The position numbers were made by a program, and so were the translations under genes. Shown one piece after another: positions 963 to 13,572 of a DNA stretch of 64,000 nucleotides; position 1 is the stretch's first letter; each line of letters starts with the position of its first letter. This DNA is from Myxococcota bacterium (GTDB taxonomy: Bacteria; Myxococcota_A; UBA9160; SZUA-336). The DNA lies in contig JBBDXF010000038.1 in NCBI GenBank assembly GCA_040902485.1, forward strand, positions 229,134 through 293,133, given 5' to 3'. The notes below the pieces were generated by a model that saw only the letters and a program-made list of their open reading frames with translations, did no database searches and was not told where the DNA came from.

Positions 963-3900
963 ATGCGCATTCCGCTACCCGTGGCGCGAGCCGAAGCTCT
1001 CGCAGTTGCGATCACTGCGATCAGCTGCCTGCAGGCATGGCCCGCCGTCGCGCAAGACGAGCCGCTGGCCGAGGCACCCTCCGAGGCGCAGGCGCTCGCC
1101 GAGACGCCGCGCGTGGCCGTCGCCCCGGCCACCTTCCCCGCCGAGCTCGGCTTCGCGCGCGAGCCGCTCGCGGAGCACGTGCGCATCCTGCTGCGCGAGG
1201 CCGCGGTCGAGGTGGCGCCCGCGGCGCAGCTGCGCACGCGGATCGCGGCGGCCGGCCCGAGCGACGTCGCCACGAGCTGCGCGCTGGTCGCGCTCGCAGC
1301 CGCCGACGGCGCGAGTCCGGTCGTGCTCGCGGACCTGCGCGCGACCGAGCGCGGCATCGACGTCGCGCTGCGCGTCTACGAGCCGACCGCCTGCACGCTC
1401 GAGAGCGCCGCGCGCGCGTCGGGCGGCGCGAAGACGCTCGGAGCCGCGCTCGACGCTTCGCTCGCGCGCGTGCTGCCCGCGCTGGGCGGCTCGGCGGATC
1501 TGCTGCCCGCCGCGAGCCTCGGCCTCTCGCAGCTCGCGGCCGAGAGCCGTGCGCTCGCGCTGCTCGAAGAAGCCGAGCTCGCGCGCGCCTGGCGCGCGCT
1601 CGAGGGCGACACCTCGCTGCTCGCGACCGCGCTGCGCAGCCGGATCGGGGCCATTGCCGCGTCGCGCGAGGCGCCACTGGCCGAGCGCGTGCGCTTGAAC
1701 ACCGCGCGCGGCGAGACGGCGCCGAACGACGTCCTCGCGCGGCAGATCCTGATCCAGGCCGCGCGCGCGCTGGACGGCGAGCCGGCCGACGCGCGGGTGC
1801 TGCTCGCGGCGGGCGAGCTCCAGCTCGGGCGCGGCGAAGCGGGCGAGGCGCGCCGCTATCTCGAGAAGGCCGCGGCGCTCGCGCCCGGCAACCCCGACGT
1901 CCACCAGAACCTGGGCCGTGCGTTCGCGCAGCTGGGCGACGACGTGGGCGCGCGCGCGAGCTTCGAGCGCGCCGCGCAGCTCGAGCCCGACTCCAGCCGC
2001 GCGCTCGAGGAGCTCGCGCAGCTCGAAGCGCACGAGCCGGCGCGCCAGGCTGCCGTGCTGCTGCGCGCCGGCGAACGCGCCGTCGGCGCCTACGACGAGC
2101 GCGCCGCGGAGCGCGCGTTCGCGAAGGTGCTGCTGCTCGATCCGCACAGCGTCCCCGCGGTGAAGGACCGCGCGGCGGTCCTGTACGCGCGCTTCGGCGA
2201 CGCCGAGCGCGCGCGCGCCACCTGGCAGGAGGCGATCGACGCCGGCGGCAGCTCGCCGGCGCGCGTGCTCGGCGCCGCGCAGGCGAGCCACGCGCTCGGC
2301 GATCGGGGCGCGGCCGAGACGGGCTTCCGCACGGCGCTCGAGCTCGACCCGACGAGCGTCGGCGCCGCGCTCGCCTTGGGTACGCTCTACACCGAGATGG
2401 GTCGCTTCGACGAGGCCCGCCCCTGGCTGGAGAAGGCCGTCGCGCTCGCGCCGCGCGATCCCGAGCCCAAGCGCGGGCTGGCCGTCGTGCTGCACCAGGC
2501 GGGCCAGTCGGACGCGGCACTCGAGCTGCTGCGCGCGGCCGAGCGCGCGAACGGCCCGACCACGAGCGTGCTGCGCATGCGCGCGACCATCCTGCGCGCG
2601 GGCGGCGACCCGGCCGGCGCGCTCGCGGTTCTCGAGCGCGCGATCGAGCTCGACCCGGTCGACGCCGGCCTGCGCGCCGAGCTCGCCGAAGCGCACGAGC
2701 TGCTCGGCGATCCGAGCGCGGCGGAGCGCGCGCGCGGCCATGCCACGCTGCTGACGCCGGCCCGTCCGCCGCCCCCGGAGGACGCCGCGACCGCGACCGC
2801 CGAGTCGTCGGGGGCGAGCGCGAGCGAGCTCGGCGACGTCGACGAGCGGCTGGCCGAGCTGATCCAGAGCTTCGTCGCGGTCGAGGCCGACACCGGCCGC
2901 GTCGCGCTGATCGGCGTGCGCGAGCGCAACGACTTCCTGGAGAATCCGCTGGCGTGCCTGAAGGCGCCGCTTCAGTGCCTGAAGCCGCGCGTTCCGAACC
3001 GCGACGCGCTCGATCGCGCGCTCGGTCGGGCGATCGGCGGCCAGTACGCGCTGATCCCGCGCGGCGAGATCGAAGAGGGCATGAAGAACAGCGCGAACCG
3101 CTCGCTGATCGCGGGGCTGCTCGCCTTCGAGCGCCAGGACTCGCTCGACGCGAACGCGCTGAGCGACATGAACCTGGCGCTGGGCAGCGACGCGCTGTTC
3201 CTGGCGCGCATCGAGCGCACGCCCGGCGGCGCCACCGCAGAGTCCGCTTCACGCTGCGGCGGCGAAACGCCCTGGCGGCTCGAGCTGCGCCAGCTCGCGG
3301 GCCGCTCGCCGGTGACGACGAAGATCCTGGGCAACGCGCTCTGCATCGACGCGCGCGGCGAATACTCGCGCTGGAATCGCCTGCTGCTCGGGCTGCTGGG
3401 CGCGGCCGGGCTCGCGCTCGCGTTTCAGCTGGTGCGCGGCTGGGGCAGCGTCTCGGTCACGGTCAACCTGCCGCCGCAGACGCGCGCGCTGTTCAGCATC
3501 AGCCTCTCGCGCCGGCCGCGGAAGGCGCGGGGCGCGAAGAGCCAGAAGAACAAGGAGCGCGCGAAGTCGCTGATCGAGGACGGCTTGCGCCGCTTGAACC
3601 GCTACGAGCGCGCGCTGCGCCAGGGCAGCCCCGTCGACTTCACGTGGATTCCCGCGCGCCGGCGTTCGTACTACGTGACGGTGCGCGGGCCGCTGATCAA
3701 CTCGGCGACCGGCGAGCTGATCGGCGATTTCCTCGAGGAGCAGCTCGTGCGCGTGCGGCGCGGCAAGGCCGAGGGCGTGAAGTTCGACCTGCGCCCGAAG
3801 GAGACGGTGCTCGAGATCACCGTCAGCGGCGCCGACAAGGCGGTCGGCGCGGTCGCGCTGGCGCTGCGCGGCGTGCCCTCGTCGCTGCGCTACGCCAACG

Positions 3901-5657
3901 ACGGCGGCGTATTCCTGTACCTGCAGCCGGGCAAGCACACGCTGCTGGTGGGCGCGGGCGATCGCCTGCTGGAGAAGCTGTTCGAGATCCGCTCCTACGA
4001 CACGATGCGGATGCAGATCGAGATTCCGCGCGTGCAGGAGTGGCTGTTCACGGGTTGCCCCGCGGCGGTCACCGCCTACCTCGAGGGCGACGTGCCGCGC
4101 GCCGCGGACGAGCTCGAGCGCGCGGGCGAGACCAAGGCGGCGAACAAGCTGCGCGCGAGGCTCGTGCGCGCGCAGGGCAAGACGGAGGTCGCGCAGAGCG
4201 CACCCGCCACGCCGAGCGATCCGCGCGCGGCCGCCGAGCTCGCGGAGTCCGCGCGCGATCCGCACAGCGCCGCGGCGCTGTTCGAAGCCGCCGGTGAATT
4301 CGCCGACGCCGCGGACGCGCATCGCGCCGCGGGCGATCTTGCCGCCGCAGCGCGCGCCTACGAGCGCGCGGGCGACCTCGCGAGCGCGATCGAGTGCGCG
4401 CAGCGGATGCCGGACGAGGAGTACCTGCTCGCGCTGTACGAGAAGCACGGCGACTCGTTCGAGGCCGGCGAGCTGGCCAAGCGGGCGCGCCAGACGCTGC
4501 GCGCGATCCACGCCTTCTCGCAGGTCGACCGGATCGACTCGAACTACCGCAAGGCGTGTCAGCGGCTGGTCGAGCTCCACAGCGAGCGCAACCAGTTCGC
4601 GCCCGCGCTCGAGAAGCTCGAGGAGCTGGTCGAGCTCGAGGGCGGCGAGCAGGCGCCGCTGCAGCTGCGCTCGCTGCTCGCGCGTCTGCTCGAGACGCTC
4701 GGCCGCGGCGTGGACGCGCTCACCGTCTGGGAGTCGATCGAGTCGCGCGACGCGGCCTTCCAGGACGCCTCCGCGCGCGTCGCGGGGCTGCGCGCCAAGC
4801 ACCGTCCACAGCCCGCGCCCGCCGCGAGCGCGCCGGCGAGTGCGCCCGCTGCCGGAGAGAGCCGCTACGAGATCCTCGAGGAGCTCGGCCGCGGCGCGAT
4901 GGGCGTGGTGTACAAGGCGCGCGATACGCGGCTCGGCCGCGTGGTCGCGCTGAAGCGCCTGACCGACAACCTGCGCGGCCACCCGACCGCGATCGCCTTC
5001 TTCGAGCGCGAGGCGCGCTCCGCGGCGGCGCTCTCGCACCCGAACATCGTGGTGGTCTACGACGCGGGCCAGGAGAACGGCCACTACTTCATCACCATGG
5101 AGCACCTGCAGGGCACGACGCTCGAGCAGATCCTGAAGCAGCGCGGGGCGATGAGCGCGCAGATCGTCGCTTCACTCGGCGTGCAGGTCTGCGCGGGCCT
5201 GCACTACGCGCACACCAACAAGATCATCCACCGCGACATCAAGACCGCGAACCTGTTCTTCACCCGCGAGCGGATCGTGAAGATCATGGACTTCGGTCTG
5301 GCCAAGATGGTCGAAGAAGTACGCAAGGGCGCGACCATGATCAGCGGCACACCCTACTACATGGCTCCGGAGCAGGCCCTGGGCGAGAACGTCGACCACC
5401 GCGCGGATCTGTACGCGCTCGGCGTCACCTTCTGGAACCTGCTGACCAACGCGTTCCCGTTCGAGACCGGGGACGTGACCTTCCATCACCGCAATACGCC
5501 CGCGCCCGACGTGCGCACGCGCGCGCCCGGCGCGCCCGCCGAGCTGGCTCTGCTCGTCGCGAAGCTGCTGGCCAAGCGGCCCGACGCGCGCTTCCAGAAC
5601 GCGGCGGAAGTCGCGCAGCTGCTGCAGCAGATCGCCGCCGCCGCGCCCGCCCCCTGA
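963..5657 (+). CDS. receptor-type Ser/Thr protein kinase with N-terminal signal peptide and TPR repeats, one TM helix, and a C-terminal Hanks-type kinase domain
   Basis: Signal peptide MRIPLPVARAEALAVAITAISCLQAWPAVAQ. Multiple TPR-like repeats around aa 260–560. Hydrophobic segment LLLGLLGAAGLALAFQLV near aa 815. Kinase motifs YEILEELGRGAMGVVYKA...ALKRL, HRDIKTANLFF, DFGLAK and APE lie in the last ~300 aa. Confidence 0.9.
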   Translation: MRIPLPVARAEALAVAITAISCLQAWPAVAQDEPLAEAPSEAQALAETPRVAVAPATFPAELGFAREPLAEHVRILLREAAVEVAPAAQLRTRIAAAGPSDVATSCALVALAAADGASPVVLADLRATERGIDVALRVYEPTACTLESAARASGGAKTLGAALDASLARVLPALGGSADLLPAASLGLSQLAAESRALALLEEAELARAWRALEGDTSLLATALRSRIGAIAASREAPLAERVRLNTARGETAPNDVLARQILIQAARALDGEPADARVLLAAGELQLGRGEAGEARRYLEKAAALAPGNPDVHQNLGRAFAQLGDDVGARASFERAAQLEPDSSRALEELAQLEAHEPARQAAVLLRAGERAVGAYDERAAERAFAKVLLLDPHSVPAVKDRAAVLYARFGDAERARATWQEAIDAGGSSPARVLGAAQASHALGDRGAAETGFRTALELDPTSVGAALALGTLYTEMGRFDEARPWLEKAVALAPRDPEPKRGLAVVLHQAGQSDAALELLRAAERANGPTTSVLRMRATILRAGGDPAGALAVLERAIELDPVDAGLRAELAEAHELLGDPSAAERARGHATLLTPARPPPPEDAATATAESSGASASELGDVDERLAELIQSFVAVEADTGRVALIGVRERNDFLENPLACLKAPLQCLKPRVPNRDALDRALGRAIGGQYALIPRGEIEEGMKNSANRSLIAGLLAFERQDSLDANALSDMNLALGSDALFLARIERTPGGATAESASRCGGETPWRLELRQLAGRSPVTTKILGNALCIDARGEYSRWNRLLLGLLGAAGLALAFQLVRGWGSVSVTVNLPPQTRALFSISLSRRPRKARGAKSQKNKERAKSLIEDGLRRLNRYERALRQGSPVDFTWIPARRRSYYVTVRGPLINSATGELIGDFLEEQLVRVRRGKAEGVKFDLRPKETVLEITVSGADKAVGAVALALRGVPSSLRYANDGGVFLYLQPGKHTLLVGAGDRLLEKLFEIRSYDTMRMQIEIPRVQEWLFTGCPAAVTAYLEGDVPRAADELERAGETKAANKLRARLVRAQGKTEVAQSAPATPSDPRAAAELAESARDPHSAAALFEAAGEFADAADAHRAAGDLAAAARAYERAGDLASAIECAQRMPDEEYLLALYEKHGDSFEAGELAKRARQTLRAIHAFSQVDRIDSNYRKACQRLVELHSERNQFAPALEKLEELVELEGGEQAPLQLRSLLARLLETLGRGVDALTVWESIESRDAAFQDASARVAGLRAKHRPQPAPAASAPASAPAAGESRYEILEELGRGAMGVVYKARDTRLGRVVALKRLTDNLRGHPTAIAFFEREARSAAALSHPNIVVVYDAGQENGHYFITMEHLQGTTLEQILKQRGAMSAQIVASLGVQVCAGLHYAHTNKIIHRDIKTANLFFTRERIVKIMDFGLAKMVEEVRKGATMISGTPYYMAPEQALGENVDHRADLYALGVTFWNLLTNAFPFETGDVTFHHRNTPAPDVRTRAPGAPAELALLVAKLLAKRPDARFQNAAEVAQLLQQIAAAAPAP

Positions 5658-5676: not shown

Positions 5677-7392
5677 TCAGCCTCGCGGCGCCAGGTCGAG
5701 GGCGCGCAGCCGGCGCAGCAGGCCCGCGGGCAGCGCGAGGTTCGCCGCGCGATCCGTCACCAGGCAGACGACGTTCGGTCCGGGCGCGAGCCGCGCGGAG
5801 TGCAGCGCGGGCTCGAGCTGATCGAGCGCGCTCGCGCACACGCCGCGGCAGCCCAGGCCCTCCGCGATGATGTCCCAGCGCACGACCTCCGACTCGCCGT
5901 CGAAGGCGATGTCGCGCTTCGCGCGGCCGTGCTGCGCGTCGGACGTCGAAGCGCGCTCGGCGAACACGATGGTCGTCACCTTCAAGCCCTCGCGCGCGGC
6001 GGTCTGCATCTCCATGAAGCTCTGCTCCGCGGCGTCCTCGCTGGTCACGCACACGACCTCGCGCCCGGGGTCGGCGAGCTTGGCGCCGATCGCGACCGGG
6101 ATGCCCGAGCCGAGCACGCCGTGGCGGTCGACACAGCGGTGGTACGAGCGCGCGCGCGTCGGCGGCAGCGCCCAGTGCGCCCACAGTGCGGTGTGCACCC
6201 CGTCGACGGCGTAGATCGTGTCGGGCCCGAACACGCGGCCGATCTCCAGGATCGCCCTGCGCGGATGGATGTCCGGTCCGCTGGCGCGGTCGAGCGCCGC
6301 GAACTGCTCCGCGCGCCAGGCGCGCGCGGCGGCCGCGTAGCGCGCCAGGTCGTTCGAGTCGGCGCCGTGCACGCGCCGCGCGCGCAGCAACCCGAGCAGC
6401 TCGCCGAGACCCGTGCGCGCGTCCGCCGCGATGTCGAGCGCGAGCGGTCGCGTGCCGCCCAGACTGCGCGGCGAGGCGCCGATCTGGATCCACGACTGGC
6501 GCGCGCCGTCGCTCGTGTCCTCGTCCAGGACCGGATCGAGATCGCCCATCGGCGAGCCCACGACCAGCACGACGTCGGCCTCGCGCAGCGCCGCCTGCGC
6601 GCCGCTGCTGAAGCCGCACAGCGCGTGCGGGTGGTCGAGTGGAAACGCGGAGCGGCCGCCCAGGGTCGTGACGATCGGACAGGCGAGCCGCTCCACGAGC
6701 TCGAACAGCGCGGCGTTCGCGCCGTCTCGGTCGACGCCGCCGCCGGCGACGACGAGCGGTCGCTCCGCGCGCGCGAGCATCTGCGCGGCCTGCTCGAGCC
6801 GGGCGCGCACCGGCTCCGCCTGCGCGGGTCGCTGCGGAATCGACGACGCGAACGACTCGTCGCGCGGGTTGCCCAGCTCGTTCAGCGCAGCTTGCGACAG
6901 CTCCAAAAGAACCGGCCCGGGTCGGCCGAGCGTGAGCTCCTGGAAGACGCGGTGCACGAGCTCGGGAATGCGCTCGCGCTCGCGCACCGATGCGCTCCAC
7001 TTCACGGCCAGCCGGTACAGGTCGAGCGGGTCCTGACCCGCGAACGCGGCCGAGGCGGCCGGCATCACCGAGTCGCGGCGTTGCTCGGACGTGATCACCA
7101 CGACCGGTATGCCGCCGCGCTGCGCGCCGACGACGCCGGGCAGCAGGTTCGCCGAGCCGGAGCCGGGGCGTCCGATCACCGCCGCCACCTGCCCGCTCGT
7201 GCGGTACAGACCCTCCGCGAGCTGAGCCGCGGCGGCCCCGCTCCGCACCGGCACGAAGCGCATGCGATTCGCGTCGAGCGATTCGAGCAGGGGCGCGAGC
7301 TCGGGCGCGGGCAGCCCCGCGACCAGCCGCACGCCCTCGTTGGCCAAGCAGTGCGCGAGCAGCGCCCCGCCGCTGATCTCGGACCCGCTCAA
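5677..7392 (-). CDS. thiamine-pyrophosphate enzyme family protein (acetolactate-synthase/benzoylformate-decarboxylase-like), possibly catalytically degenerate
   Basis: Full-length similarity to TPP enzymes (SGSEISGGALLAHCLANEGVRLVAGLP...GRPGPVLLELS...). The canonical HEQ catalytic segment reads VRSGAAAAQLAEGLYR. The GDG(x25)NN motif reads TSEDAA...FAERA. Start assigned to a TTG that overlaps the stop of the upstream small ORF; the start is uncertain. Confidence 0.7.
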   Translation of the reverse strand: MSGSEISGGALLAHCLANEGVRLVAGLPAPELAPLLESLDANRMRFVPVRSGAAAAQLAEGLYRTSGQVAAVIGRPGSGSANLLPGVVGAQRGGIPVVVITSEQRRDSVMPAASAAFAGQDPLDLYRLAVKWSASVRERERIPELVHRVFQELTLGRPGPVLLELSQAALNELGNPRDESFASSIPQRPAQAEPVRARLEQAAQMLARAERPLVVAGGGVDRDGANAALFELVERLACPIVTTLGGRSAFPLDHPHALCGFSSGAQAALREADVVLVVGSPMGDLDPVLDEDTSDGARQSWIQIGASPRSLGGTRPLALDIAADARTGLGELLGLLRARRVHGADSNDLARYAAAARAWRAEQFAALDRASGPDIHPRRAILEIGRVFGPDTIYAVDGVHTALWAHWALPPTRARSYHRCVDRHGVLGSGIPVAIGAKLADPGREVVCVTSEDAAEQSFMEMQTAAREGLKVTTIVFAERASTSDAQHGRAKRDIAFDGESEVVRWDIIAEGLGCRGVCASALDQLEPALHSARLAPGPNVVCLVTDRAANLALPAGLLRRLRALDLAPRG

Positions 7393-7607
7393 TGTACGAC
7401 TCTCGCCGTGCGGGCGCCGGCGCGCTTGCACGGCTCTTCGAGTCCCGCGACGAGGCCGCGTGCGGGCTCGGCTGCGACGCCTTCCGGTGTCACTCCGTCG
7501 GCGACCGGGTCGAGCTCGAACGGGGTTGCCAGACTCGCCAGGTGGCCGGTCTGGGTTGGTGACTCGAGGGCGAGGAAGTTCGCCTCGAGCGGCTTCTGCT
7601 GTTTCAT
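7389..7607 (-). CDS. small hypothetical protein (72 aa)
   Basis: ATG..TGA ORF encoding MKQQKPLEANFLALESPTQTGHLASLATPFELDPVADGVTPEGVAAEPARGLVAGLEEPCKRAGARTARVVH. Its stop overlaps the TTG start of the TPP-family gene. Weak RBS. Coding status not certain. Confidence 0.35.
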   Translation of the reverse strand: MKQQKPLEANFLALESPTQTGHLASLATPFELDPVADGVTPEGVAAEPARGLVAGLEEPCKRAGARTARVVH

Positions 7608-7767
7608 CGGACCTGCTTCGCTTTGGTTTCTTGCGGTCGGGCGGGACCATCGGCCTCCGGGCTCGTTCGCGCTTGATCTTCCACGACAATCGCTTGACAC
7701 TCGGCGCCAACGGTCGGAGGACACGGCGACGCACGTCCCGCGGATTCGAGTCGGGGGCGCGGCAGGG

Positions 7768-8769
7768 GTGCTCGAGGCCATCGCCAAGCGCGGCGGCTCG
7801 GTCGCGAGCGTCTTGCGCAAGGCCGGACTGCGCCAGCGCGACCTCGCCGACCCCGAGCACTTCGTCGACCTCGAGAAGATGCTCGTGCTGCAAGACGAGG
7901 CCGCGCGCGAGGTCGGCGACGATACGCTCGGTCTGACCCTCGCCCTCACCTACAACCCGAGCCGTCTCGGCGTGCTCGCCTATGCGCTGTTCAATGCGCC
8001 CACGGTCGGCGTGGCGCTGCACAACCTCGAGCGCTACGCGCACACGCTGCTGCACGGCGTGCGGGTCGTGATCGAGATGCGCGGCTCGGAGTGCGTGTCC
8101 GGCTACGACATCCCGGTGGGCGACCGCGAGCTGCGGCGCCAGAACGCGGAGGGCGCGAGCGTGGTCGCGTTCGAGGTGATGCGCCGCCTGATCGGCCCCG
8201 ACTGGCGGCCCAAGCGCGTGGAGTTCGGCCACCGCCGGCCCGCCGACACGACCCAACACAGTCGCGTGTTCGGCGCCCCGCTGCGCTTCGAAGCCGAGCA
8301 CAGCTTCGCGCTGGTCTACGACCGGTCCGACGTCGATCGGGCGGTGCAGGGCGCGGACGCGGGGATCCTGCCGATCGTGCAGCGCTACCTGGACGAGCTC
8401 CCCGCGCCCGCGGCTCGCTCCGACGCCTGGCCTCGCGAGGTCCGCGCGCTGATCGCGCGCGACATCTGCAACGGTCACCCCGACATGGAGCGGATCGCGC
8501 GCGCGCTCGGCCTCAGCGGACGCACGCTGCAGCGCCGTCTGGCCGAGCGTGGGTTGGTCTGGAAGACGATGGTCGAGGAGGTCCGCCGCGAGCTCGCGCT
8601 CCGCTACCTGAAGGACGTGAGCACGTCGCTGACCGAGGTCGCCTTCCTGCTCGGCTACTCCGATCTCTCGGCGTTCGGTCGCGCCTTCCGCCGCTGGACG
8701 GGCACGACCCCGGCGGCGCAGCGCCGACGCCTGCGCTCCGAAGCGAGCGGCGCCGCGACTGTGGTATGA
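7768..8769 (+). CDS. AraC-family transcriptional regulator
   Basis: C-terminal HTH_AraC signature (ICNGHPDMERIARALGLSGRTLQRRLAERG...LTEVAFLLGYSDLSAFGRAFRRWTGTTP). N-terminal AraC-binding-like domain. GTG start chosen downstream of a GGAGGA; an ATT or other upstream start is possible. Confidence 0.8.
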   Translation: MLEAIAKRGGSVASVLRKAGLRQRDLADPEHFVDLEKMLVLQDEAAREVGDDTLGLTLALTYNPSRLGVLAYALFNAPTVGVALHNLERYAHTLLHGVRVVIEMRGSECVSGYDIPVGDRELRRQNAEGASVVAFEVMRRLIGPDWRPKRVEFGHRRPADTTQHSRVFGAPLRFEAEHSFALVYDRSDVDRAVQGADAGILPIVQRYLDELPAPAARSDAWPREVRALIARDICNGHPDMERIARALGLSGRTLQRRLAERGLVWKTMVEEVRRELALRYLKDVSTSLTEVAFLLGYSDLSAFGRAFRRWTGTTPAAQRRRLRSEASGAATVV

Positions 8770-8788
8770 GACTCCGCGAGGAGAATCC

Positions 8789-10450
8789 ATGCCCGAGCTC
8801 GATCTCTGCATCCGCAACGCGCGCATCGTGGACGGCACCGGGCGCCCGGCCTTCGCCGGCGACGTCGGCATCGCGGGCGACCGCATCGCAGTGCTGGGAC
8901 GCGTCGACGCCGGGGCGGCGCGCGTGATCGACGCGCGCGGGCTGGTGCTCGCGCCGGGCTTCATCGACATCCACACCCACTACGACCCGCAGATCTGCTG
9001 GGACCGGCTCGCGACGCCCTCGATCGAGCACGGCGTCACGACCGTGGTGATGGGCAACTGCTCGCTCACGCTCGCGCCCGTGAAGCCGGGCCAGTCGCAC
9101 AAGCTCGTGTCGATGTTCTCGCGCATCGAGGACATCAAGGAGCCGACCTTCGCGGCGGGGGTGCCGTTCACCTGGGAGAGCTTCGGCGAGTACCTCGACC
9201 ACATCCGCGCGGGGCTGGGCCTGAACATCGGCGCGCTGGTCGGCCACTCGGCGCTGCGCTGGTACGTGATGGGCGCCGACTCGCAGGAGCGCGTCGCGAC
9301 CGACGCCGAGATCGCGCAGATGTGCCGGCTCCTCGAAGAGGCGATGGCCGCTGGCGCGATCGGGCTCTCGACCTCGTACGTCGACATCGACGAGAACATG
9401 AAGCCGGTGCCGAGCCGCTTCGCCGACATGCGCGAGAAGATCGCGCTGTGCCAGGCGATGGCGAAGAGCGGCCGCGGCGTGCTGCAGACGGTGCCCTACT
9501 TCATCGACATCGCGGAGCAGCTCGAGAACATCGCCGAGCTCGGCGAGCTCTCGCGCGCGTCGGGCGTGCTGTGCTCGCTCGCGCCGATCGTGTCGAGCCC
9601 GCTCGGCGGCGATGGCTGGCGGCGCTCGCTCGCGGCGCTGGAGGCCGAGCGCGCGAAGGGCGGCCGCGTCTACGCGCAGTCGATGCCGCGCACCTTCGAT
9701 CTGAACATCCGGCTGTCCGAGACGAGCTTCCTGTTGTTCGGCCTGCCGACCTGGAACCGCTTCATGAGTCTTCCGCTGCCCGAGCGTGTGAAGGCGTTCG
9801 GCGACCCGGCGAACCGCGCGCAGCTGGTGCAGGAGGGCATGCTGATCGCGCCGCTCCTGCTGGCGTCGTCGGTCGGCGAGGTGTTCTCGCCGGCGAACCA
9901 GCCGTTCGCGGGCCGCTCGCTGCTGCAGATCGCGGGCGAACGGAAGCACAGCCTGCCCGAGGTCATGCTCGACCTCGCGCTCGCCGACGGGTTGCGCACC
10001 GAGTTCTGCATCCGCGGCGCGATCCACGCGGACGTCGAGTCGGTGTCCGAGATCCTCTCCCACCCGCTCGTGCACGTGGGCGCCTCCGACGCCGGCGCGC
10101 ACATCGCGCAGTTCTGCGGCGCGGGCGACACCTGCTACCTGATCGAGCGCTTCGTGCGCGAGCACAAGAAGATGAGCCTGGAGCGCGCGGTCGAGCGGCT
10201 CACCGGCGAGCTCGCGCGCGACTGGGGCATCGCCGAGCGCGGCGTGATCGCGGAAGGCAAGTTCGCCGATCTCGTGCTGTTCGATCCGGAAACGATCGCG
10301 CGCGGACCCGAGGTGTTCGTGGGCGACGTGCCCGGCGACGGCAACCGCTACCTGCGCAGCGCCAAGGGCATCGAGGCCGTGATCGTGAACGGCGCGCTCA
10401 CGTTGGAGCGTGGCACCTACACCGCGGAGCGCGCGGGCCGGATCGTGTGA
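8789..10450 (+). CDS. N-acyl-D-amino-acid deacylase (D-aminoacylase) family amidohydrolase
   Basis: MPELDLCIRNARIVDGTGRPAFAGDVGIAGDRIAVLG...APGFIDIHTHYD is diagnostic of D-aminoacylase/amidohydrolase_3. A GAGGAG RBS lies 6 nt upstream. The gene starts 19 bp after the AraC stop. Confidence 0.85.
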   Translation: MPELDLCIRNARIVDGTGRPAFAGDVGIAGDRIAVLGRVDAGAARVIDARGLVLAPGFIDIHTHYDPQICWDRLATPSIEHGVTTVVMGNCSLTLAPVKPGQSHKLVSMFSRIEDIKEPTFAAGVPFTWESFGEYLDHIRAGLGLNIGALVGHSALRWYVMGADSQERVATDAEIAQMCRLLEEAMAAGAIGLSTSYVDIDENMKPVPSRFADMREKIALCQAMAKSGRGVLQTVPYFIDIAEQLENIAELGELSRASGVLCSLAPIVSSPLGGDGWRRSLAALEAERAKGGRVYAQSMPRTFDLNIRLSETSFLLFGLPTWNRFMSLPLPERVKAFGDPANRAQLVQEGMLIAPLLLASSVGEVFSPANQPFAGRSLLQIAGERKHSLPEVMLDLALADGLRTEFCIRGAIHADVESVSEILSHPLVHVGASDAGAHIAQFCGAGDTCYLIERFVREHKKMSLERAVERLTGELARDWGIAERGVIAEGKFADLVLFDPETIARGPEVFVGDVPGDGNRYLRSAKGIEAVIVNGALTLERGTYTAERAGRIV

Positions 10451-10455
10451 GCGGG

Positions 10456-11244
10456 ATGCGCGCGCGCCAGCTCGCCCCGATCCTGGTCCTGCTCCTCGCG
10501 GCCTGCAACGGTCCGCTGCCGTTCCTCGCCGGAGGAAAACTCACCGGCGAGAGCGCGTCCGCGCCGACCGACTGGTCGTTCGCGGGGGACTCCGGGACCG
10601 CGCAGCTCGAGACCCGGCCCGAGGATCCGTATTCGGTGAACCTCGTCTACACCGTCGTCGACGGCCAGCTCTACATCAACGCCGGCGACACCGAGACGAA
10701 CTGGGTGAAGCACATCGCGGCGAACCCCGACATGCGGCTGCGCATCGACGGAACGGTCTACGACCTGCGCGCGGTGCGAGTCACGGACACCGCCGAGATC
10801 GCGTCGTTCGCCGCGGCGTGGACGAGTCAGTCGATGTTCCGCCGCGATCCCGCGAAGCTCGACCCCGTCTGGATCTACCGGCTGGTCGCGCGTCAGCGCG
10901 CGGCCTCGTCGAGCTGGCGGCTGGTCTCGAGCAGGAGCTCGGTCATCGAGATGTCGAGCCTGGGCTCGGGGAGCAACGCGTTCGCGTCGAAGCGGAAGCG
11001 GCCGCGGGTGGCGCCGACCAGCACGACCGCGGCCGCAAGGCCGTCGGCCTTCTCGGTCCGGGCGTGCAGCGGCTGGCCGTCGCCGAGCCAGACGCGTGCC
11101 GGGCCCTGCTCGGTCTCGACCTCGAGCAGGCCGGACTTGCGGCCCATCTCGAGCATCTGCAGCACCACGAAGACCGGCATCTCGGCCAGCTCGCCGCTGA
11201 ACGCGTCGCCCGCGCCCTGCTTCGCGAACAGCACGGTCTCCTGA
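10456..11244 (+). CDS. lipoprotein with a DUF385/PNPOx-like (deazaflavin-nitroreductase-like) domain; the functional protein probably ends near 10890
   Basis: Lipobox LLLAACNG. Domain ...NLVYTVVDGQLYINAGDTETNWVKHIAANPDMRLRIDGTVYDLRAVRVTD.... No in-frame stop occurs until 11244, so the ORF tail is antisense to the convergent FHA gene and looks non-protein-like. Confidence 0.55.
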   Translation: MRARQLAPILVLLLAACNGPLPFLAGGKLTGESASAPTDWSFAGDSGTAQLETRPEDPYSVNLVYTVVDGQLYINAGDTETNWVKHIAANPDMRLRIDGTVYDLRAVRVTDTAEIASFAAAWTSQSMFRRDPAKLDPVWIYRLVARQRAASSSWRLVSSRSSVIEMSSLGSGSNAFASKRKRPRVAPTSTTAAARPSAFSVRACSGWPSPSQTRAGPCSVSTSSRPDLRPISSICSTTKTGISASSPLNASPAPCFANSTVS

Positions 11245-11576
11245 CCGTCGGGATCGGACAAGAGCGCCTCGAGCGACGCACGCGCGATGCAGAAGGTGAT
11301 CGCCGCCGAGCCCACGCCGATCCGGTCGCCCGGCTCGAGCGCGCGCGGGCCACCGATCAGCTCGCCGTTCACGAACGTGCCGTTCCGGCTCGACAGGTCC
11401 CGCACCAGGTACAGGCCGTCGTCCGTGTACACCTCGGCGTGTCGGCGCGAGGCGTCGTCCGTGGCGACCGGGAAGTCGCAGTCGCGGCCGCGCCCGATCG
11501 CGACACGCCCGCCAGCGGGGATCTCGACGGGGGCGAACGGCGGGCAGAAGAGCAGCGCTTTGCGGTCGGCGGGCAT
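10893..11576 (-). CDS. FHA domain protein with C-terminal DUF4388-like domain
   Basis: FHA signature RVAIGRGRDCDFPVATDDASRRHAEVYTDDGLYLVRDLSSRNGTFVNG...GDRIGVG. C-terminal segment LAEMPVFVVLQMLEMGRKSGLLEV is typical of DUF4388. Confidence 0.85.
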   Translation of the reverse strand: MPADRKALLFCPPFAPVEIPAGGRVAIGRGRDCDFPVATDDASRRHAEVYTDDGLYLVRDLSSRNGTFVNGELIGGPRALEPGDRIGVGSAAITFCIARASLEALLSDPDGQETVLFAKQGAGDAFSGELAEMPVFVVLQMLEMGRKSGLLEVETEQGPARVWLGDGQPLHARTEKADGLAAAVVLVGATRGRFRFDANALLPEPRLDISMTELLLETSRQLDEAAR

Positions 11577-11622
11577 CGCCTTCGACTCGGCAGCGCGCGC
11601 TGCCCCCTTGAGCCGCGCGGGC

Positions 11623-13572
11623 TCACTTCGCGTCGGCGGTCCTCTCGGTCGCGCCGAGCCCCTCCATGAACGCGGCCTGCACCTGCGGCATGTACATGTT
11701 CCCGAGGTGCCCGCCGCCCGGGAACACGGTGATGCGGCCAGCGAAGACGCTCTCGAGCCAGCCGAGGTCGCTCGGCTGCAGGATGAAGTCGTCCTTGTTC
11801 GTGAACACCGCGATGCGCTCGTCTTCGCGCAGCCCGGCTTCCTGGCTGTACAGGTCGGCGGCGTCGAACAGCTGCGCGGTCGTGCGGGCGCCGCCCTCCT
11901 TCTCGACGAAGTATGGGATCGCCAGCTCGTCCATGTAGCGCTTCAGGGTATTGCTCTCGACCTCGACCGCGAACGGTCCGTGGAAGCCGCCGGCCGACCC
12001 GCCGGGAATCTCGCTGAGCGTCTTGCCGCCGCGCTCGCTGCTGGCGGCGATCGCCTGCATCGTCATCGCGCGCGAGGACAGGCCGATCAGGAACTCGGAG
12101 CCGTCGCGCGTGAACGGCAGTGTCTTGTACTTGCGGATCAGATCCTCGTCCTCGCCCTGCGCGAGCACGTAGGCCTTCTTGACCGTCTCGGTGGCCAGGT
12201 CGCGGCGCTGCGCATCAGGCCACTCGCGCGGCGCGTCGAAGTAGCTGTCGAACAGACCCGAGGCGTAGCCGAGGTTCACCGCGGGATTGATCGCGACGAT
12301 GCGCTCGAAGTGCAGCGCGCCCGGGGCCGTGTTCTTGCGCTCGAGCTGCGAGATGAACAGCGTCGCGATGCCGCCCAGCGAGTAGCCCATCAGCGACGAC
12401 GACGTGACCTTGCCGGGGTGGTTCGCCTCGATGTTGCCACGCATCTCGCCGAGCGCGCGGTACAGATCCTCGGCGTCGCTCGGCGTGTAGCCGGGATAGG
12501 TGGCGGAGAGCCCGCTCAGGATGAACTCGGGATTGAACGGGCTGCTCACGATCGCCGCCGAGTAGCCGCGCTGCCAGGCGGACTCCGCGAGCTTCACGGC
12601 GTTGGTGGTCGAGCGGTGCGAGCCGATGCCCGGAATGATGAACACGAGCGGCGCCGGCTTCTCCTGCATCCAGAGCGAGTACGGCACCGGCTTGCCCGTG
12701 GCTTGCGACGGCGCCTCGCCGCGCGCGTGCAGCGAGGGGAAGTTCGGATCGTCGAGCTTGGTCAGCATCACGCCGAGCGACGGATTCGGGTCGGCGTCGG
12801 TCCAGGCGATCTCCGGAATCTGATAGTCGCTGACCGCGATGTCGCGGTTGATCGCCCAGAGCGTGCGGACCGGCAGGTACAGGTCCATGCCGCTCTCGGT
12901 CATCATGTCGTAGGTGTTGATGCGCGAGCTGAAGCCGTTGACGGTGAACACGACGAACGGGATGCCGTAGGTCGCGACCCAGGTCGCCGGCGAGAGCGCG
13001 ACGTCGAACACCTTGCCCACGGTGTCGCGGCCGCTGCTCGGGCCGAGCATGGGGATGAAGAAGTAGAAGCCCGGCCCGATGCCCCACTTGCCGAACGCCT
13101 GGCCGACGTCCTCCTTGTAGGTCGGCACGCCGAGCGGCTTGGCGACGTCGAAGAAGCCCGCGACCCCGGCGGTGGTGTTGACCAGGAAGTTCCCCGTCTC
13201 GGTCCCCGCCTTGATCACCTCGCCCTGCAACAGCAGGCTCACGAAGCGGTCCGGGAAGTTCAAGTTGTAGGCGAAGTTGTCGATGCTCGTCCGCACCGCC
13301 CTGGGGAACACGGCGCGCCAGCCGAGCGCGACGGGCCGCACGCCGTAGTCGATCACGCCCTTGGTCGCGTGGTAGCTGCCGCGGTTGACCGGCTCGATCG
13401 GATCGTTCACGTACTGCACCAGCTCGTAGCTCTCGCCGGTGGTCTGGCGCCGGTGCTCCGACACGCCCATGACCGAGACCGTGTGCGGGCGCGCGTTGGA
13501 GTCGGGCGAAGCGCAACCGAACTGCAGCGAGCTCGCGATCGCCAACCCGATCGCGAGGAGTGTCCTGGGCAT
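11623..13572 (-). CDS. lipoprotein fusion: MlaA/VacJ-like domain plus alpha/beta-hydrolase (GxSxG) domain
   Basis: Lipobox LQFGCAS. N-terminal DPIEPVNRGSYHATKGVIDYGVRPVALGWRAV...NFAYNLNFPDRFVSLLLQG...NTTAGVAGFFDVA matches the MlaA/VacJ family. The C-terminal half contains GYSLGG nucleophile-elbow and alpha/beta-hydrolase-like segments. Confidence 0.8.
   Translation of the reverse strand: MPRTLLAIGLAIASSLQFGCASPDSNARPHTVSVMGVSEHRRQTTGESYELVQYVNDPIEPVNRGSYHATKGVIDYGVRPVALGWRAVFPRAVRTSIDNFAYNLNFPDRFVSLLLQGEVIKAGTETGNFLVNTTAGVAGFFDVAKPLGVPTYKEDVGQAFGKWGIGPGFYFFIPMLGPSSGRDTVGKVFDVALSPATWVATYGIPFVVFTVNGFSSRINTYDMMTESGMDLYLPVRTLWAINRDIAVSDYQIPEIAWTDADPNPSLGVMLTKLDDPNFPSLHARGEAPSQATGKPVPYSLWMQEKPAPLVFIIPGIGSHRSTTNAVKLAESAWQRGYSAAIVSSPFNPEFILSGLSATYPGYTPSDAEDLYRALGEMRGNIEANHPGKVTSSSLMGYSLGGIATLFISQLERKNTAPGALHFERIVAINPAVNLGYASGLFDSYFDAPREWPDAQRRDLATETVKKAYVLAQGEDEDLIRKYKTLPFTRDGSEFLIGLSSRAMTMQAIAASSERGGKTLSEIPGGSAGGFHGPFAVEVESNTLKRYMDELAIPYFVEKEGGARTTAQLFDAADLYSQEAGLREDERIAVFTNKDDFILQPSDLGWLESVFAGRITVFPGGGHLGNMYMPQVQAAFMEGLGATERTADAK

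What the first reader, a model, noticed from the sequence alone, without database searches (positions are those of the whole stretch)
5677..10450. TPP-enzyme homologue with apparently degenerate catalytic and cofactor-binding motifs, coupled to a 72-aa ORF and flanked by an AraC regulator and a D-aminoacylase
**Seen in the sequence**
- The minus-strand gene at 5677–7392 is clearly TPP-enzyme-like along its whole length.
- Where ALS/BFDC-type enzymes carry the conserved 'V-R-H-E-Q-G-A..A-E-G-Y-A-R' segment, this protein reads V-R-S-G-A-A-A-A-Q-L-A-E-G-L-Y-R. The catalytic Glu that activates the cofactor N1' is missing.
- The C-terminal GDG-x(24–27)-NN Mg-PPi motif is replaced by TSEDAA...FAERA.
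- Its assigned start codon overlaps the stop of a 72-aa ORF (MKQQKPLEANFLALESPTQTGHLAS...), which is divergent from an AraC regulator. The AraC regulator is followed 19 bp later by an N-acyl-D-amino-acid deacylase.

**Inference**
- This could be a non-catalytic TPP-fold protein (a pseudoenzyme or binding protein), or one that uses a different cofactor chemistry.
- The motif comparison was done by eye, not by formal alignment.
Basis: partly seen in the sequence, partly recalled or inferred. Interest (0 to 1): 0.5.

Follow-up and report, generated by a model that had tools for sequence, protein, structure and literature searches.

The report
Degenerate thiamine-enzyme homologue in a decaying operon
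This gene encodes a full-length thiamine-diphosphate-enzyme look-alike that has lost the catalytic glutamate and rewritten its cofactor motif, and the 72-aa ORF in front of it is the in-frame stump of a deleted wax-ester-synthase gene, so it is an evolutionary relic story, not a new biochemical system.

Summary
Window 5677-7392 (-) encodes a 571-aa protein with all three TPP-enzyme domains. Formal alignments put Gly52 at the catalytic Glu, Ser451-Glu452-Asp453 at GDG, and Ala478-Glu479 at NN.

Two corrections:
- The 'AE' is not a degeneration. The whole, otherwise canonical, parent family has it, and Asp is common at that position elsewhere.
- Asp-to-Glu in GDG occurs in a few percent of active relatives.

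The loss of Glu is real and rare. It was seen in 0 of 125 diverse representatives and only in a clade of six orthologues from one Myxococcota lineage. In that clade, 71 of 257 near-invariant parent positions changed. The clade diverges as fast within one lineage as the parent family does across phyla, yet dN/dS stays at 0.23-0.39.

In every relative the gene is translationally coupled to an upstream 500-aa WS/DGAT acyltransferase gene. The window's 72-aa ORF consists of four collinear in-frame fragments of that gene. Close relatives show further decay: a WS/DGAT with a dead motif, a 1.6-kb deletion, and a premature stop.

Best reading: a catalytically degenerate ThDP-fold protein in a two-gene, probably AraC-controlled module that is being lost. 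Whether it still binds cofactor is untested.

The parts
5677..7392 (-). ThDP-enzyme-fold gene (571 aa, TTG start) with degenerate catalytic and cofactor motifs
   Evidence: Pfam N/M/C domains. AF2 model pLDDT 80.7, pTM 0.86. Foldseek TM 0.81-0.82 to 2-hydroxyacyl-CoA lyases/synthases and 0.77 to AHAS. GC3 93.5%, like the neighbouring genes.
7237..7239 (-). Codon for Gly52, at the position of the cofactor-activating Glu (standard position 51; yeast AHAS Glu139)
   Evidence: HMMER alignments. Clade: G/A/A/A/A/A; parent family: 100% Glu. 0 of 125 representatives lack an acidic residue here.
6034..6042 (-). Codons for Ser451-Glu452-Asp453, in place of Gly-Asp-Gly of the ThDP-Mg motif
   Evidence: SED or GED in all six clade members; GDG in the parent family.
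5956..5961 (-). Codons for Ala478-Glu479, at the NN position, 27 residues after Glu452
   Evidence: 'AE' is also the state of the canonical parent family, so this is not a clade-specific loss.
7389..7607 (-). 72-aa ORF: in-frame relic of a WS/DGAT (wax-ester synthase / diacylglycerol acyltransferase) gene. The HHxxxDG catalytic motif is deleted. The stop overlaps the TTG start of the downstream gene.
   Evidence: tblastn and blastn against intact orthologues: pieces correspond to WS/DGAT aa 1-27, 64-70, about 153-166 and about 478-502. No Pfam hit. GC3 78% versus 83-95% for the same segments in intact genes.
7608..7767 (.). Divergent intergenic control region, conserved across five orthologous loci
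   Evidence: MAFFT alignment of five loci with long invariant blocks. 89.8% identity to L001 over 225 nt including the intergenic part. No sigma-70 consensus was found.
7670..7697 (-). Direct repeat TCAAGCG-N14-TCAAGCG (21-bp register), a candidate AraC-type operator
   Evidence: A single occurrence in the window, 0 expected in shuffles. Conserved in the five-locus alignment. The operator role is an inference.
7768..8769 (+). AraC-family regulator (Arabinose_bd + HTH_18); the start codon is uncertain (7768, 7801 or 7810)
   Evidence: Pfam E 2e-39 and 9e-19. Nearest NCBIfam is QhpR, 228 bits, below its cut-off of 250. Syntenic in L001, L002, L004 and L007.
8789..10450 (+). D-aminoacylase-like amidohydrolase; a neighbour, probably not part of the module
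   Evidence: Amidohydro_3. Best solved relative 1m7j D-aminoacylase, E 2.6e-43. Absent at this position in L001. 89-92% aa identity between loci, dN/dS 0.13-0.18.

Best explanation
The gene encodes a ThDP-enzyme-fold protein descended from a canonical, slowly evolving, uncharacterised carboligase/lyase-like family. It has most probably lost ThDP-dependent catalysis.

**History of the module.** In the ancestor of one narrow Myxococcota lineage the gene became the second cistron of an operon, wsdgat followed by the tpp-like gene, with a 4-nt stop/start overlap. The operon is divergent from an araC gene and probably controlled by it. Constraint on the active site was then released. One branch (P0007) lost two active-site loops. 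The branch that includes the window replaced the catalytic Glu, GDG and about 70 other near-invariant residues. The protein nevertheless stayed under purifying selection as a folded protein. That implies a residual non-catalytic role, possibly with the WS/DGAT partner (inferred).

**Recent decay.** In the window's own sub-lineage the module is now being dismantled. The WS/DGAT gene is a 72-aa in-frame stump here, carries a dead motif in L010, is deleted together with araC and the tpp-like 5' end in L012, and the tpp-like gene has a premature stop in L021. The stump keeps the reading frame through to the overlapping TTGA, so it may now act only as a leader ORF that maintains translational coupling (inferred).

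**Shown versus inferred.** Shown: motif states, clade distribution, synteny, the relic origin of the ORF, rate acceleration, dN/dS below 1, and disruptions in relatives. Inferred: loss of ThDP binding and catalysis, a non-catalytic role, AraC control, and a translational-coupling role for the stump.
For: **Motifs**
- Motif positions come from formal alignments.
- Loss of Glu is unique among 125 diverse representatives.

**Relaxed active-site constraint**
- 71 of 257 parent columns that are at least 95% conserved are changed in the clade. They cluster at positions 52, 75, 89-93, 103-104, 420-426, 452-457, 480-502 and 562-568.
- The changed sites are no more conserved within the clade (39% invariant) than weakly conserved parent sites (33-47%). 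So there is no sign of a new specific constraint.
- The six clade members are only 75% identical to each other, although their neighbouring amidohydrolases are 89-92% identical. Parent-family members from several phyla are 76% identical to each other.
- The syntenic orthologue P0007 keeps Glu and most parent residues but has deleted two active-site loops.

**Retention as a protein**
- NG86 dN/dS is 0.23-0.39, within the range of the flanking genes.
- There is no rate excess in the window lineage: 17 versus 21 lineage-specific changes.
- GC3 is 93.5%.

**Operon and relic**
- WS/DGAT followed by the tpp-like gene, with a 4-nt overlap, occurs in L001, L002, L003, L004, L007, L010 and L011.
- The relic is composed of four collinear in-frame pieces.

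**Decay in close relatives**
- L010: HHxxxDG has become HQAALGG. Both His residues are reported essential (Stoveken 2009, as cited in PMC5407786).
- L012: a 1.6-kb deletion plus a 93-nt deletion plus a frameshift.
- L021: a TAG stop after about residue 483.
Against: - Loss of cofactor binding is not demonstrated. Acidic residues remain at both Mg-ligand positions (Glu452, Glu479).
- Gly425 and Leu427, the V-conformation position, are retained.
- Glyoxylate carboligase is active with Val at the Glu position, and 7% of the superfamily has Glu in GDG (PMC3534367).
- dN/dS below 1 and the absence of indels in six lineages argue for some function, which this explanation does not identify.
- NG86 is crude at 93% GC3.
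- The stop, frameshift and deletions in L012 and L021 come from single metagenome contigs and could in part be assembly errors.
- No direct evidence links the protein physically to WS/DGAT.
Confidence: 0.55

Rival explanations
1. It is still a ThDP-dependent enzyme that activates the cofactor without the canonical Glu, as glyoxylate carboligase does. It would bind Mg-PPi through Glu452/Asp453 and Glu479 and act in a lipid-related pathway with the WS/DGAT, for example by making a hydroxy-ketone or alcohol acceptor.
For: - Gcl precedent (Val at position 51), and Glu in GDG in 7% of the superfamily and in 3 of 125 representatives.
- Acidic residues sit at both ligand positions with the canonical 27-residue spacing.
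- Gly425 and Leu427 are retained.
- Purifying selection.
- Operon with an acyltransferase.
Against: - The three Glu-in-GDG representatives all keep the catalytic Glu.
- Gly443 (98% conserved in the superfamily) is Ser here. The next Gly is Asp and Gly456 is Glu, which puts negative charge where the diphosphate sits.
- 71 of 257 near-invariant sites are replaced and now vary.
- The active-site loops and the C-terminal lid are variable within the clade and have low pLDDT.
- The sister orthologue deleted those loops.
- The gene is repeatedly disrupted in close relatives.
- NCBIfam Gcl model: 169 bits against a cut-off of 791.
Confidence: 0.15
2. It is simply a not-yet-broken pseudogene. The whole module is functionless in this genome and the intact frame is a matter of time and high G+C.
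For: - The partner gene is deleted in the window.
- Two of the four members of the closest sub-lineage carry disrupted copies.
- The L010 partner has a dead motif.
- Long spurious ORFs are common at 72% G+C; for example, the 1099-aa ORF in this same frame.
Against: - dN/dS is 0.23 between the window and L010, no higher than for older pairs or for neighbouring genes.
- No indels in 571 codons across six lineages at 75% identity.
- GC3 is at the genomic coding level.
- The upstream control region is conserved.
- All three junctions of the stump are in frame (chance about 1/27 if independent), which keeps the overlap with the start codon.
Confidence: 0.2
3. The motif differences are an alignment or annotation artefact and a canonical Glu and GDG..N lie elsewhere in the protein.
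For: None found.
Against: - Three independent alignments agree: HMMER to two solved structures, and MAFFT to homologues 50% identical that have unambiguous flanks (VRHEAAG.HMAEGLYK versus VRSGAAAAQLAEGLYR; VTGDGAAGF versus VTSEDAAEQ).
- The alignment of 125 representatives gives the same columns.
Confidence: 0.01

Closest known systems
ThDP-dependent decarboxylase-type superfamily (AHAS/ALS, pyruvate oxidase, benzoylformate decarboxylase, oxalyl-CoA decarboxylase / 2-hydroxyacyl-CoA lyase)
   Same: - Same three-domain PYR-TH3-PP architecture over the full length.
- Foldseek TM 0.77-0.82.
- 21-23% identity to solved members.
   Different: - Gly at the cofactor-activating Glu.
- Ser-Glu-Asp for Gly-Asp-Gly.
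- Below every NCBIfam cut-off (best 218 bits against 538 for TIGR00118).
Uncharacterised 567-571-aa 'thiamine pyrophosphate-binding protein' family of Binatia, Myxococcota, Acidobacteriota and others (P0008-P0120). Its nearest solved relative is BbmA, described in PDB entry 8x3x as a ThDP-dependent HKA synthase.
   Same: - About 50% identity over the full length.
- Shares the family-specific 'AE' at the NN position and many family motifs.
   Different: - The parent has RHE and GDG and is 76% identical across phyla.
- The window clade changed 71 of 257 near-invariant columns, evolves much faster, and is the only part of the family linked to WS/DGAT.
Glyoxylate carboligase (Gcl)
   Same: A ThDP-fold protein without the canonical Glu (Val51), as described in PMC3534367.
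   Different: Gcl keeps GDG..N and the other cofactor contacts and is a well-conserved active family. Here the PP-domain motif and the surrounding residues are also rewritten. The match to the Gcl model is far below its cut-off.
WS/DGAT acyltransferases (AtfA type; solved relatives 6chj and 7nxg)
   Same: The 72-aa ORF derives from such a gene. The orthologous 499-502-aa genes match PF03007 + PF06974, and match 6chj at E 5e-60.
   Different: Only about 73 of about 500 codons remain. HHxxxDG and both domains are gone.
Pseudoenzymes derived from cofactor-dependent enzymes (general concept; transketolase-like proteins are the ThDP example I recall from memory, not tested here)
   Same: Fold retained, catalytic and cofactor residues lost, purifying selection retained.
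   Different: No function, partner or binding activity has been shown here, and the gene is being lost in close relatives.

Membership tests
ThDP-dependent decarboxylase-type superfamily | Three-domain architecture (TPP_enzyme_N / _M / _C) and fold | tested here: met
   Pfam hits above the gathering scores. AF2 model pTM 0.86. Foldseek TM 0.77-0.82.
ThDP-dependent decarboxylase-type superfamily | Cofactor-activating Glu at standard position 51 (94% Glu, 3% Val; PMC3534367) | tested here: not met
   Gly52 in the window and Ala in the five other clade members. 123 Glu + 2 Asp in 125 representatives.
ThDP-dependent decarboxylase-type superfamily | GDG-X(24-27)-N(N/D) Mg-diphosphate motif | tested here: inconclusive
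   Ser451-Glu452-Asp453 ... Glu479 with 27-residue spacing. Gly443 and Gly445 are lost. Asp-to-Glu and an acidic residue at the second ligand position occur in active relatives.
ThDP-dependent decarboxylase-type superfamily | Gly plus a large hydrophobic residue that holds the cofactor in the V conformation (yeast AHAS G523/M525) | tested here: met
   Gly425 (invariant) and Leu427 align there. This rests on sequence alignment only.
ThDP-dependent decarboxylase-type superfamily | Binds ThDP-Mg2+ and catalyses C-C bond cleavage or formation | not testable with these tools
Uncharacterised 568-aa parent family (P0008-P0120) | Retention of the family's near-invariant columns (257 columns at least 95% conserved) | tested here: not met
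   71 of 257 are replaced, and 32% of the remainder vary within the clade. 50% identity to the family, versus 76% within it.
Glyoxylate carboligase | Match to the equivalog model, with Val at position 51 and an intact GDG..N | tested here: not met
   NF008431: 169 bits against a cut-off of 791. Gly, not Val; GDG not intact.
WS/DGAT acyltransferase (for the 72-aa ORF) | WS_DGAT_cat and WS_DGAT_C domains with the HHxxxDG catalytic motif | tested here: not met
   No Pfam or NCBIfam hit. Only fragments homologous to aa 1-27, 64-70, about 153-166 and about 478-502 remain; the motif at about aa 137-143 is deleted.
AraC/XylS regulators with an Arabinose_bd sensor domain | N-terminal PF12625 domain plus a C-terminal double HTH | tested here: met
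   PF12625 E 2e-39, PF12833 E 9e-19. No equivalog was reached (QhpR 228 bits against 250).
D-aminoacylase-type amidohydrolases | Amidohydro_3 fold with similarity to solved N-acyl-D-amino-acid deacylases | tested here: met
   PF07969. 1m7j E 2.6e-43, 3gip E 3e-36. Substrate not testable.

The most novel reading that the evidence does not exclude
The clade is a genuine bacterial pseudoenzyme family derived from a ThDP enzyme. The fold would be kept for a non-catalytic job, for example binding acyl-CoA or another ligand, or scaffolding or regulating the co-translated WS/DGAT acyltransferase. The former cofactor pocket would be filled by the newly fixed Arg/Glu/Asp residues (N75R, H92R, L423R, G480R, G453D, G456E).
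Probability: 0.2. Interest if true: 0.55.

Novelty: new variant of a known kind. Interest (0 to 1): 0.3.

Why it matters
Databases label this protein 'thiamine pyrophosphate-binding protein' or 'acetolactate synthase', and both labels are probably wrong for this clade.

The locus is a compact, datable example of how a cofactor enzyme decays. Active-site constraint is released first. The protein then persists for a long time as a folded product. Finally the operon is dismantled piece by piece in sister lineages, which leaves an in-frame stump ORF that could be mistaken for a small gene.

If the protein has a non-catalytic role with WS/DGAT, it would be a rare bacterial pseudoenzyme derived from a ThDP enzyme. 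If not, the value is mainly cautionary, for annotation and for small-ORF discovery.

Tried and rejected
- **Literature.** Searches for ThDP pseudoenzymes, for BbmA, and for WS/DGAT + ThDP operons returned nothing usable.
- **Parent-family context.** Three loci (L005/L006, L008, L009) were examined to infer the ancestral function. Contexts differ and none has WS/DGAT.
- **NCBIfam.** No model reaches its cut-off for the window protein, the parent family or P0007.
- **More clade members.** Genome and metagenome scans added only two, both damaged. The clade is rare.
- **Second copies in the window.** tblastn found no second copy of a canonical TPP paralogue or of WS/DGAT in the 64-kb window.
- **Promoters and terminators.** The sigma-70 scan found nothing in the control region. 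The two terminator-like hits lie inside the gene and are taken as chance.
- **Rate after loss of WS/DGAT.** Faster evolution of the window copy was tested and rejected (17 versus 21 changes, chi-square 0.4).
- **New constraint on replaced residues.** The idea that the replaced residues form a newly constrained motif was rejected as unsupported. They are no more conserved than background.
- **Amidohydrolase as part of the module.** Considered and rejected on synteny and rate.
- **Pocket geometry and docking.** Could not be done because model coordinates are not exposed.

Full report
**1. What is at the coordinates**

The window is about 72% G+C, so long spurious ORFs abound. The real gene on the minus strand runs from a TTG at 7392 to the stop at 5677 (571 aa). 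Its TTG overlaps the TGA of a 72-aa ORF (7389-7607) as TTGA.

An AraC-family gene lies divergently upstream (about 7768-8769; the start codon is uncertain). Nineteen bp after its stop an amidohydrolase gene begins (8789-10450).

Pfam gives TPP_enzyme_N, _M and _C for the 571-aa protein, Arabinose_bd + HTH_18 for the regulator, Amidohydro_3 for the hydrolase, and nothing for the 72-aa ORF. The hydrolase's best solved relatives are D-aminoacylases (1m7j, E 2.6e-43).

**2. The motifs, by formal alignment**

phmmer against PDB sequences aligns the protein end to end with BbmA (8x3x, E 2e-40) and yeast AHAS (1jsc, E 4e-39). Counting along the printed AHAS alignment (chain index + 57 = yeast numbering) gives these correspondences:

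| Window residue | Yeast AHAS residue | Role |
|---|---|---|
| Gly52 | Glu139 | cofactor-activating Glu |
| Ser451-Glu452-Asp453 | Gly549-Asp550-Ala551 | GDG motif |
| Glu479 | Asn577 | Mg ligand |

The canonical 27-residue spacing is retained. The catalytic Glu is absent.

The metal site is altered but not obviously destroyed. Both ligand positions carry Glu. In the standard-numbering survey of this superfamily, Glu51 is 94% conserved (3% Val, the glyoxylate carboligases), Asp444 is 91% conserved with 7% Glu, and Gly443 is 98% conserved (PMC3534367).

**3. It is a clade trait, derived from a canonical family**

A search of 5.8 billion protein clusters found the window protein itself (P0001, labelled as a Myxococcota MAG protein). 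It also found five relatives at 74-85% identity (P0002-P0006), one at 60% (P0007), and over a hundred relatives about 50% identical and 567-571 aa long, from Binatia, Myxococcota, Acidobacteriota-type and other MAGs.

The alignment shows the following:

| Group | Glu region | GDG region | NN region |
|---|---|---|---|
| Large 'parent' family | VRHEAAG.HMAEGLYK | VTGDGAAGF | VVFAEGSWT |
| P0001-P0006 | SG / SA / HA for HE | SED or GED for GDG | FAER. |

Only the Glu and GDG changes are clade-specific.

In an exhaustive HMMER search of 1.84 billion 50%-identity representatives, I aligned the 125 full-length hits among the best 150. Of these, 123 have Glu and 2 have Asp at position 52. GDG or GDS occurs in 120. 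Three have Glu in the middle position, and all three keep the catalytic Glu. Position 479 is N or D in nearly all. The Glu loss is thus real and rare.

The parent family reaches no NCBIfam cut-off. Its nearest solved relative is BbmA, described in the PDB as a 'ThDP-dependent HKA synthase', followed by formolase/benzaldehyde lyase and catabolic ALS. The parent is therefore an uncharacterised carboligase/lyase-like family.

**4. Relaxed active site, retained protein**

- Of 257 alignment columns that are at least 95% conserved in the parent family, 71 are replaced in the clade. They cluster at positions 52, 64, 75, 89-93, 103-104, 420-426 (with a one-residue insertion), 452-457, 480-502 and the C-terminal tail 562-568.
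- These replaced sites are invariant among the six clade members in only 39% of cases. That matches sites that are poorly conserved in the parent family (33-47%). Even the 186 retained sites are invariant in only 68%.
- The six clade proteins are 75% identical to one another, although they come from syntenic loci whose amidohydrolases are 89-92% identical. Parent-family proteins from different phyla are 76% identical. The clade therefore evolves much faster than its ancestors did.
- Nei-Gojobori dN/dS within the clade is nevertheless 0.23-0.39. Comparison values are AraC 0.24-0.46, the TPR-kinase 0.33-0.47, WS/DGAT 0.29-0.52 and the FHA protein 0.20-0.35. The amidohydrolase is lower, at 0.13-0.18.
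- There is a single one-residue length difference among six lineages. GC3 is 93.5%, the genomic coding level.
- The AF2 model is confident (pLDDT 80.7, pTM 0.86) except in loops 105-120, 182-191, 282-294, 308-314 and 482-500, which largely coincide with the rewritten regions.
- The fold matches 2-hydroxyacyl-CoA lyases/synthases (TM 0.81-0.82) and AHAS (0.77).

Together this is the signature of lost catalytic constraint with retention of a folded product.

**5. Context: the 72-aa ORF is a gene stump**

The orthologous loci L001 (P0006), L002/L003 (P0005), L004 (P0003) and L007 (P0007) share the window's gene order: MlaA-like, FHA protein, amidohydrolase (absent in L001), AraC, then divergently the module, then a convergent TPR Ser/Thr kinase. 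Between AraC and the TPP-like gene they carry a 499-502-aa WS/DGAT gene whose stop overlaps the TPP-like start by 4 nt. The WS/DGAT gene has PF03007 + PF06974 and matches 6chj at E 5e-60. The short contigs L010 (P0002) and L011 (P0004) show the same overlap.

tblastn and blastn show that the window ORF consists of collinear, in-frame pieces of that gene:
- aa 1-27, together with the upstream intergenic DNA: 89.8% identity to L001 over 225 nt, E 5e-69;
- aa 64-70 (PFELD; a 16-nt exact match in two loci);
- aa about 153-166 (ADGxTPxGV; 90% over 30 nt to L010 and L007);
- aa about 478-502 (GLEE.CKRA.ARTARVVH).

The HHxxxDG catalytic motif (about aa 137-143) is gone. All three junctions are in frame, so translation still runs to the TTGA overlap. 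This is weak evidence (about 1/27 by chance if the junctions are independent) that translational coupling to the downstream gene was preserved. The stump's GC3 is 78%, against 83-95% for the same segments in intact genes.

The intergenic region is strongly conserved in all five loci. It contains a unique direct repeat, TCAAGCG-N14-TCAAGCG, at 7670-7697. The 21-bp register is what AraC-type activators often use. Assigning it as an operator is an inference.

**6. The module is decaying in the window's nearest relatives**

- In L010 (85% identical TPP-like protein) the WS/DGAT motif reads HQAALGG. Both His residues are reported essential (Stoveken et al. 2009, as cited in PMC5407786).
- In L012 (a GTDB species-representative MAG, about 87% DNA identity) a 1.6-kb deletion joins the start of the amidohydrolase region to codon about 100 of the TPP-like gene. 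It removes AraC, WS/DGAT and the 5' end. There is also a 93-nt internal deletion and a frameshift.
- In L021 (86%) a TAG replaces the codon after about residue 483.
- dN/dS for these pairs (0.22-0.24) is not elevated, so the disruptions are recent.
- The window copy has not evolved faster than L010: 17 versus 21 lineage-specific changes.
- The sister orthologue P0007 keeps Glu, GD(C) and most parent residues but has deleted residues about 103-117 and about 482-500. This suggests that active-site constraint was already released when the gene joined WS/DGAT.
- Parent-family genes elsewhere are not linked to WS/DGAT.

**7. Interpretation**

Most likely (about 0.55) the protein no longer performs ThDP chemistry. 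It persisted as a folded, probably non-catalytic product of an AraC-linked wsdgat/tpp-like operon, and that operon is now being lost in this sub-lineage. The window represents the stage 'partner gene whittled to a leader ORF, TPP-like gene still intact'.

Three alternatives were weighed:
- A Gcl-like, still-active enzyme cannot be excluded from sequence alone (0.15).
- A functionless gene that is not yet broken is also possible (0.2).
- An alignment artefact is excluded.

**8. Limits**

- NG86 underestimates dS at 93% GC3, so the ratios are only comparable between genes.
- All relatives are metagenome contigs, so single-base lesions may be errors.
- No experiment links the protein to WS/DGAT or to AraC.

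**9. Verdict**

The main new fact is that the '72-aa ORF' is a relic of a WS/DGAT gene and that the whole module is decaying. This is a degenerate variant of a known enzyme superfamily, of modest interest (0.3). The interest would rise only if a non-catalytic function were demonstrated.

Noticed in passing
window 7670-7697 (-): Direct repeat TCAAGCG-N14-TCAAGCG (21-bp register) inside an intergenic region that is strongly conserved across five orthologous loci. It is a candidate operator for the divergent AraC regulator.
   Followed up: partly
L012:1-2100 (JANNLG010000021.1): A close relative carries a 1.6-kb deletion that removes AraC, WS/DGAT and about 100 codons of the TPP-like gene. It also has a 93-nt internal deletion and a frameshift, so it is a clear pseudogene copy.
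   Followed up: yes
L021:1-1434 (Ga0137458_1009149): An 86%-identical copy has an in-frame TAG after about residue 483 (FAERATA*), where the window has TCC (Ser).
   Followed up: partly
L010:1-1176: The WS/DGAT of the nearest intact relative has HQAALGG instead of HHxxxDG. The acyltransferase appears to be catalytically dead there, before any deletion.
   Followed up: partly
L007:6131-7774 (P0007): The syntenic orthologue in a more distant relative keeps the catalytic Glu and GD(C) but lacks two active-site loops (about residues 103-117 and 482-500 of the window protein). This is a different route of degeneration in the same operon.
   Followed up: partly
P0008-P0120 (parent family), e.g. L008:8001-9704: A widespread, highly conserved (76% identity across phyla) uncharacterised ThDP enzyme family. 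It has Glu instead of Asn/Asp at the second Mg-ligand position (VVFAEGSWT) and reaches no NCBIfam cut-off. Its genomic contexts vary.
   Followed up: partly
window 963-5657 (+): A 1564-aa TPR-repeat Ser/Thr protein kinase, convergent with the TPP-like gene (19-bp gap between the stops) and syntenic in all related loci.
   Followed up: no
window 10893-13572 (-): An FHA + DUF4388 (PatA_N-like) protein and a 649-aa MlaA-domain lipoprotein with a weak alpha/beta-hydrolase-like C-terminal half. Both are conserved neighbours in the related loci.
   Followed up: no
window 5677-8976 (-) and many others: At 72% G+C the mechanical ORF list is dominated by spurious long ORFs (for example, a 1099-aa ORF that extends the TPP-like frame through the relic and antisense to AraC). 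Gene starts had to be set by homology.
   Followed up: yes
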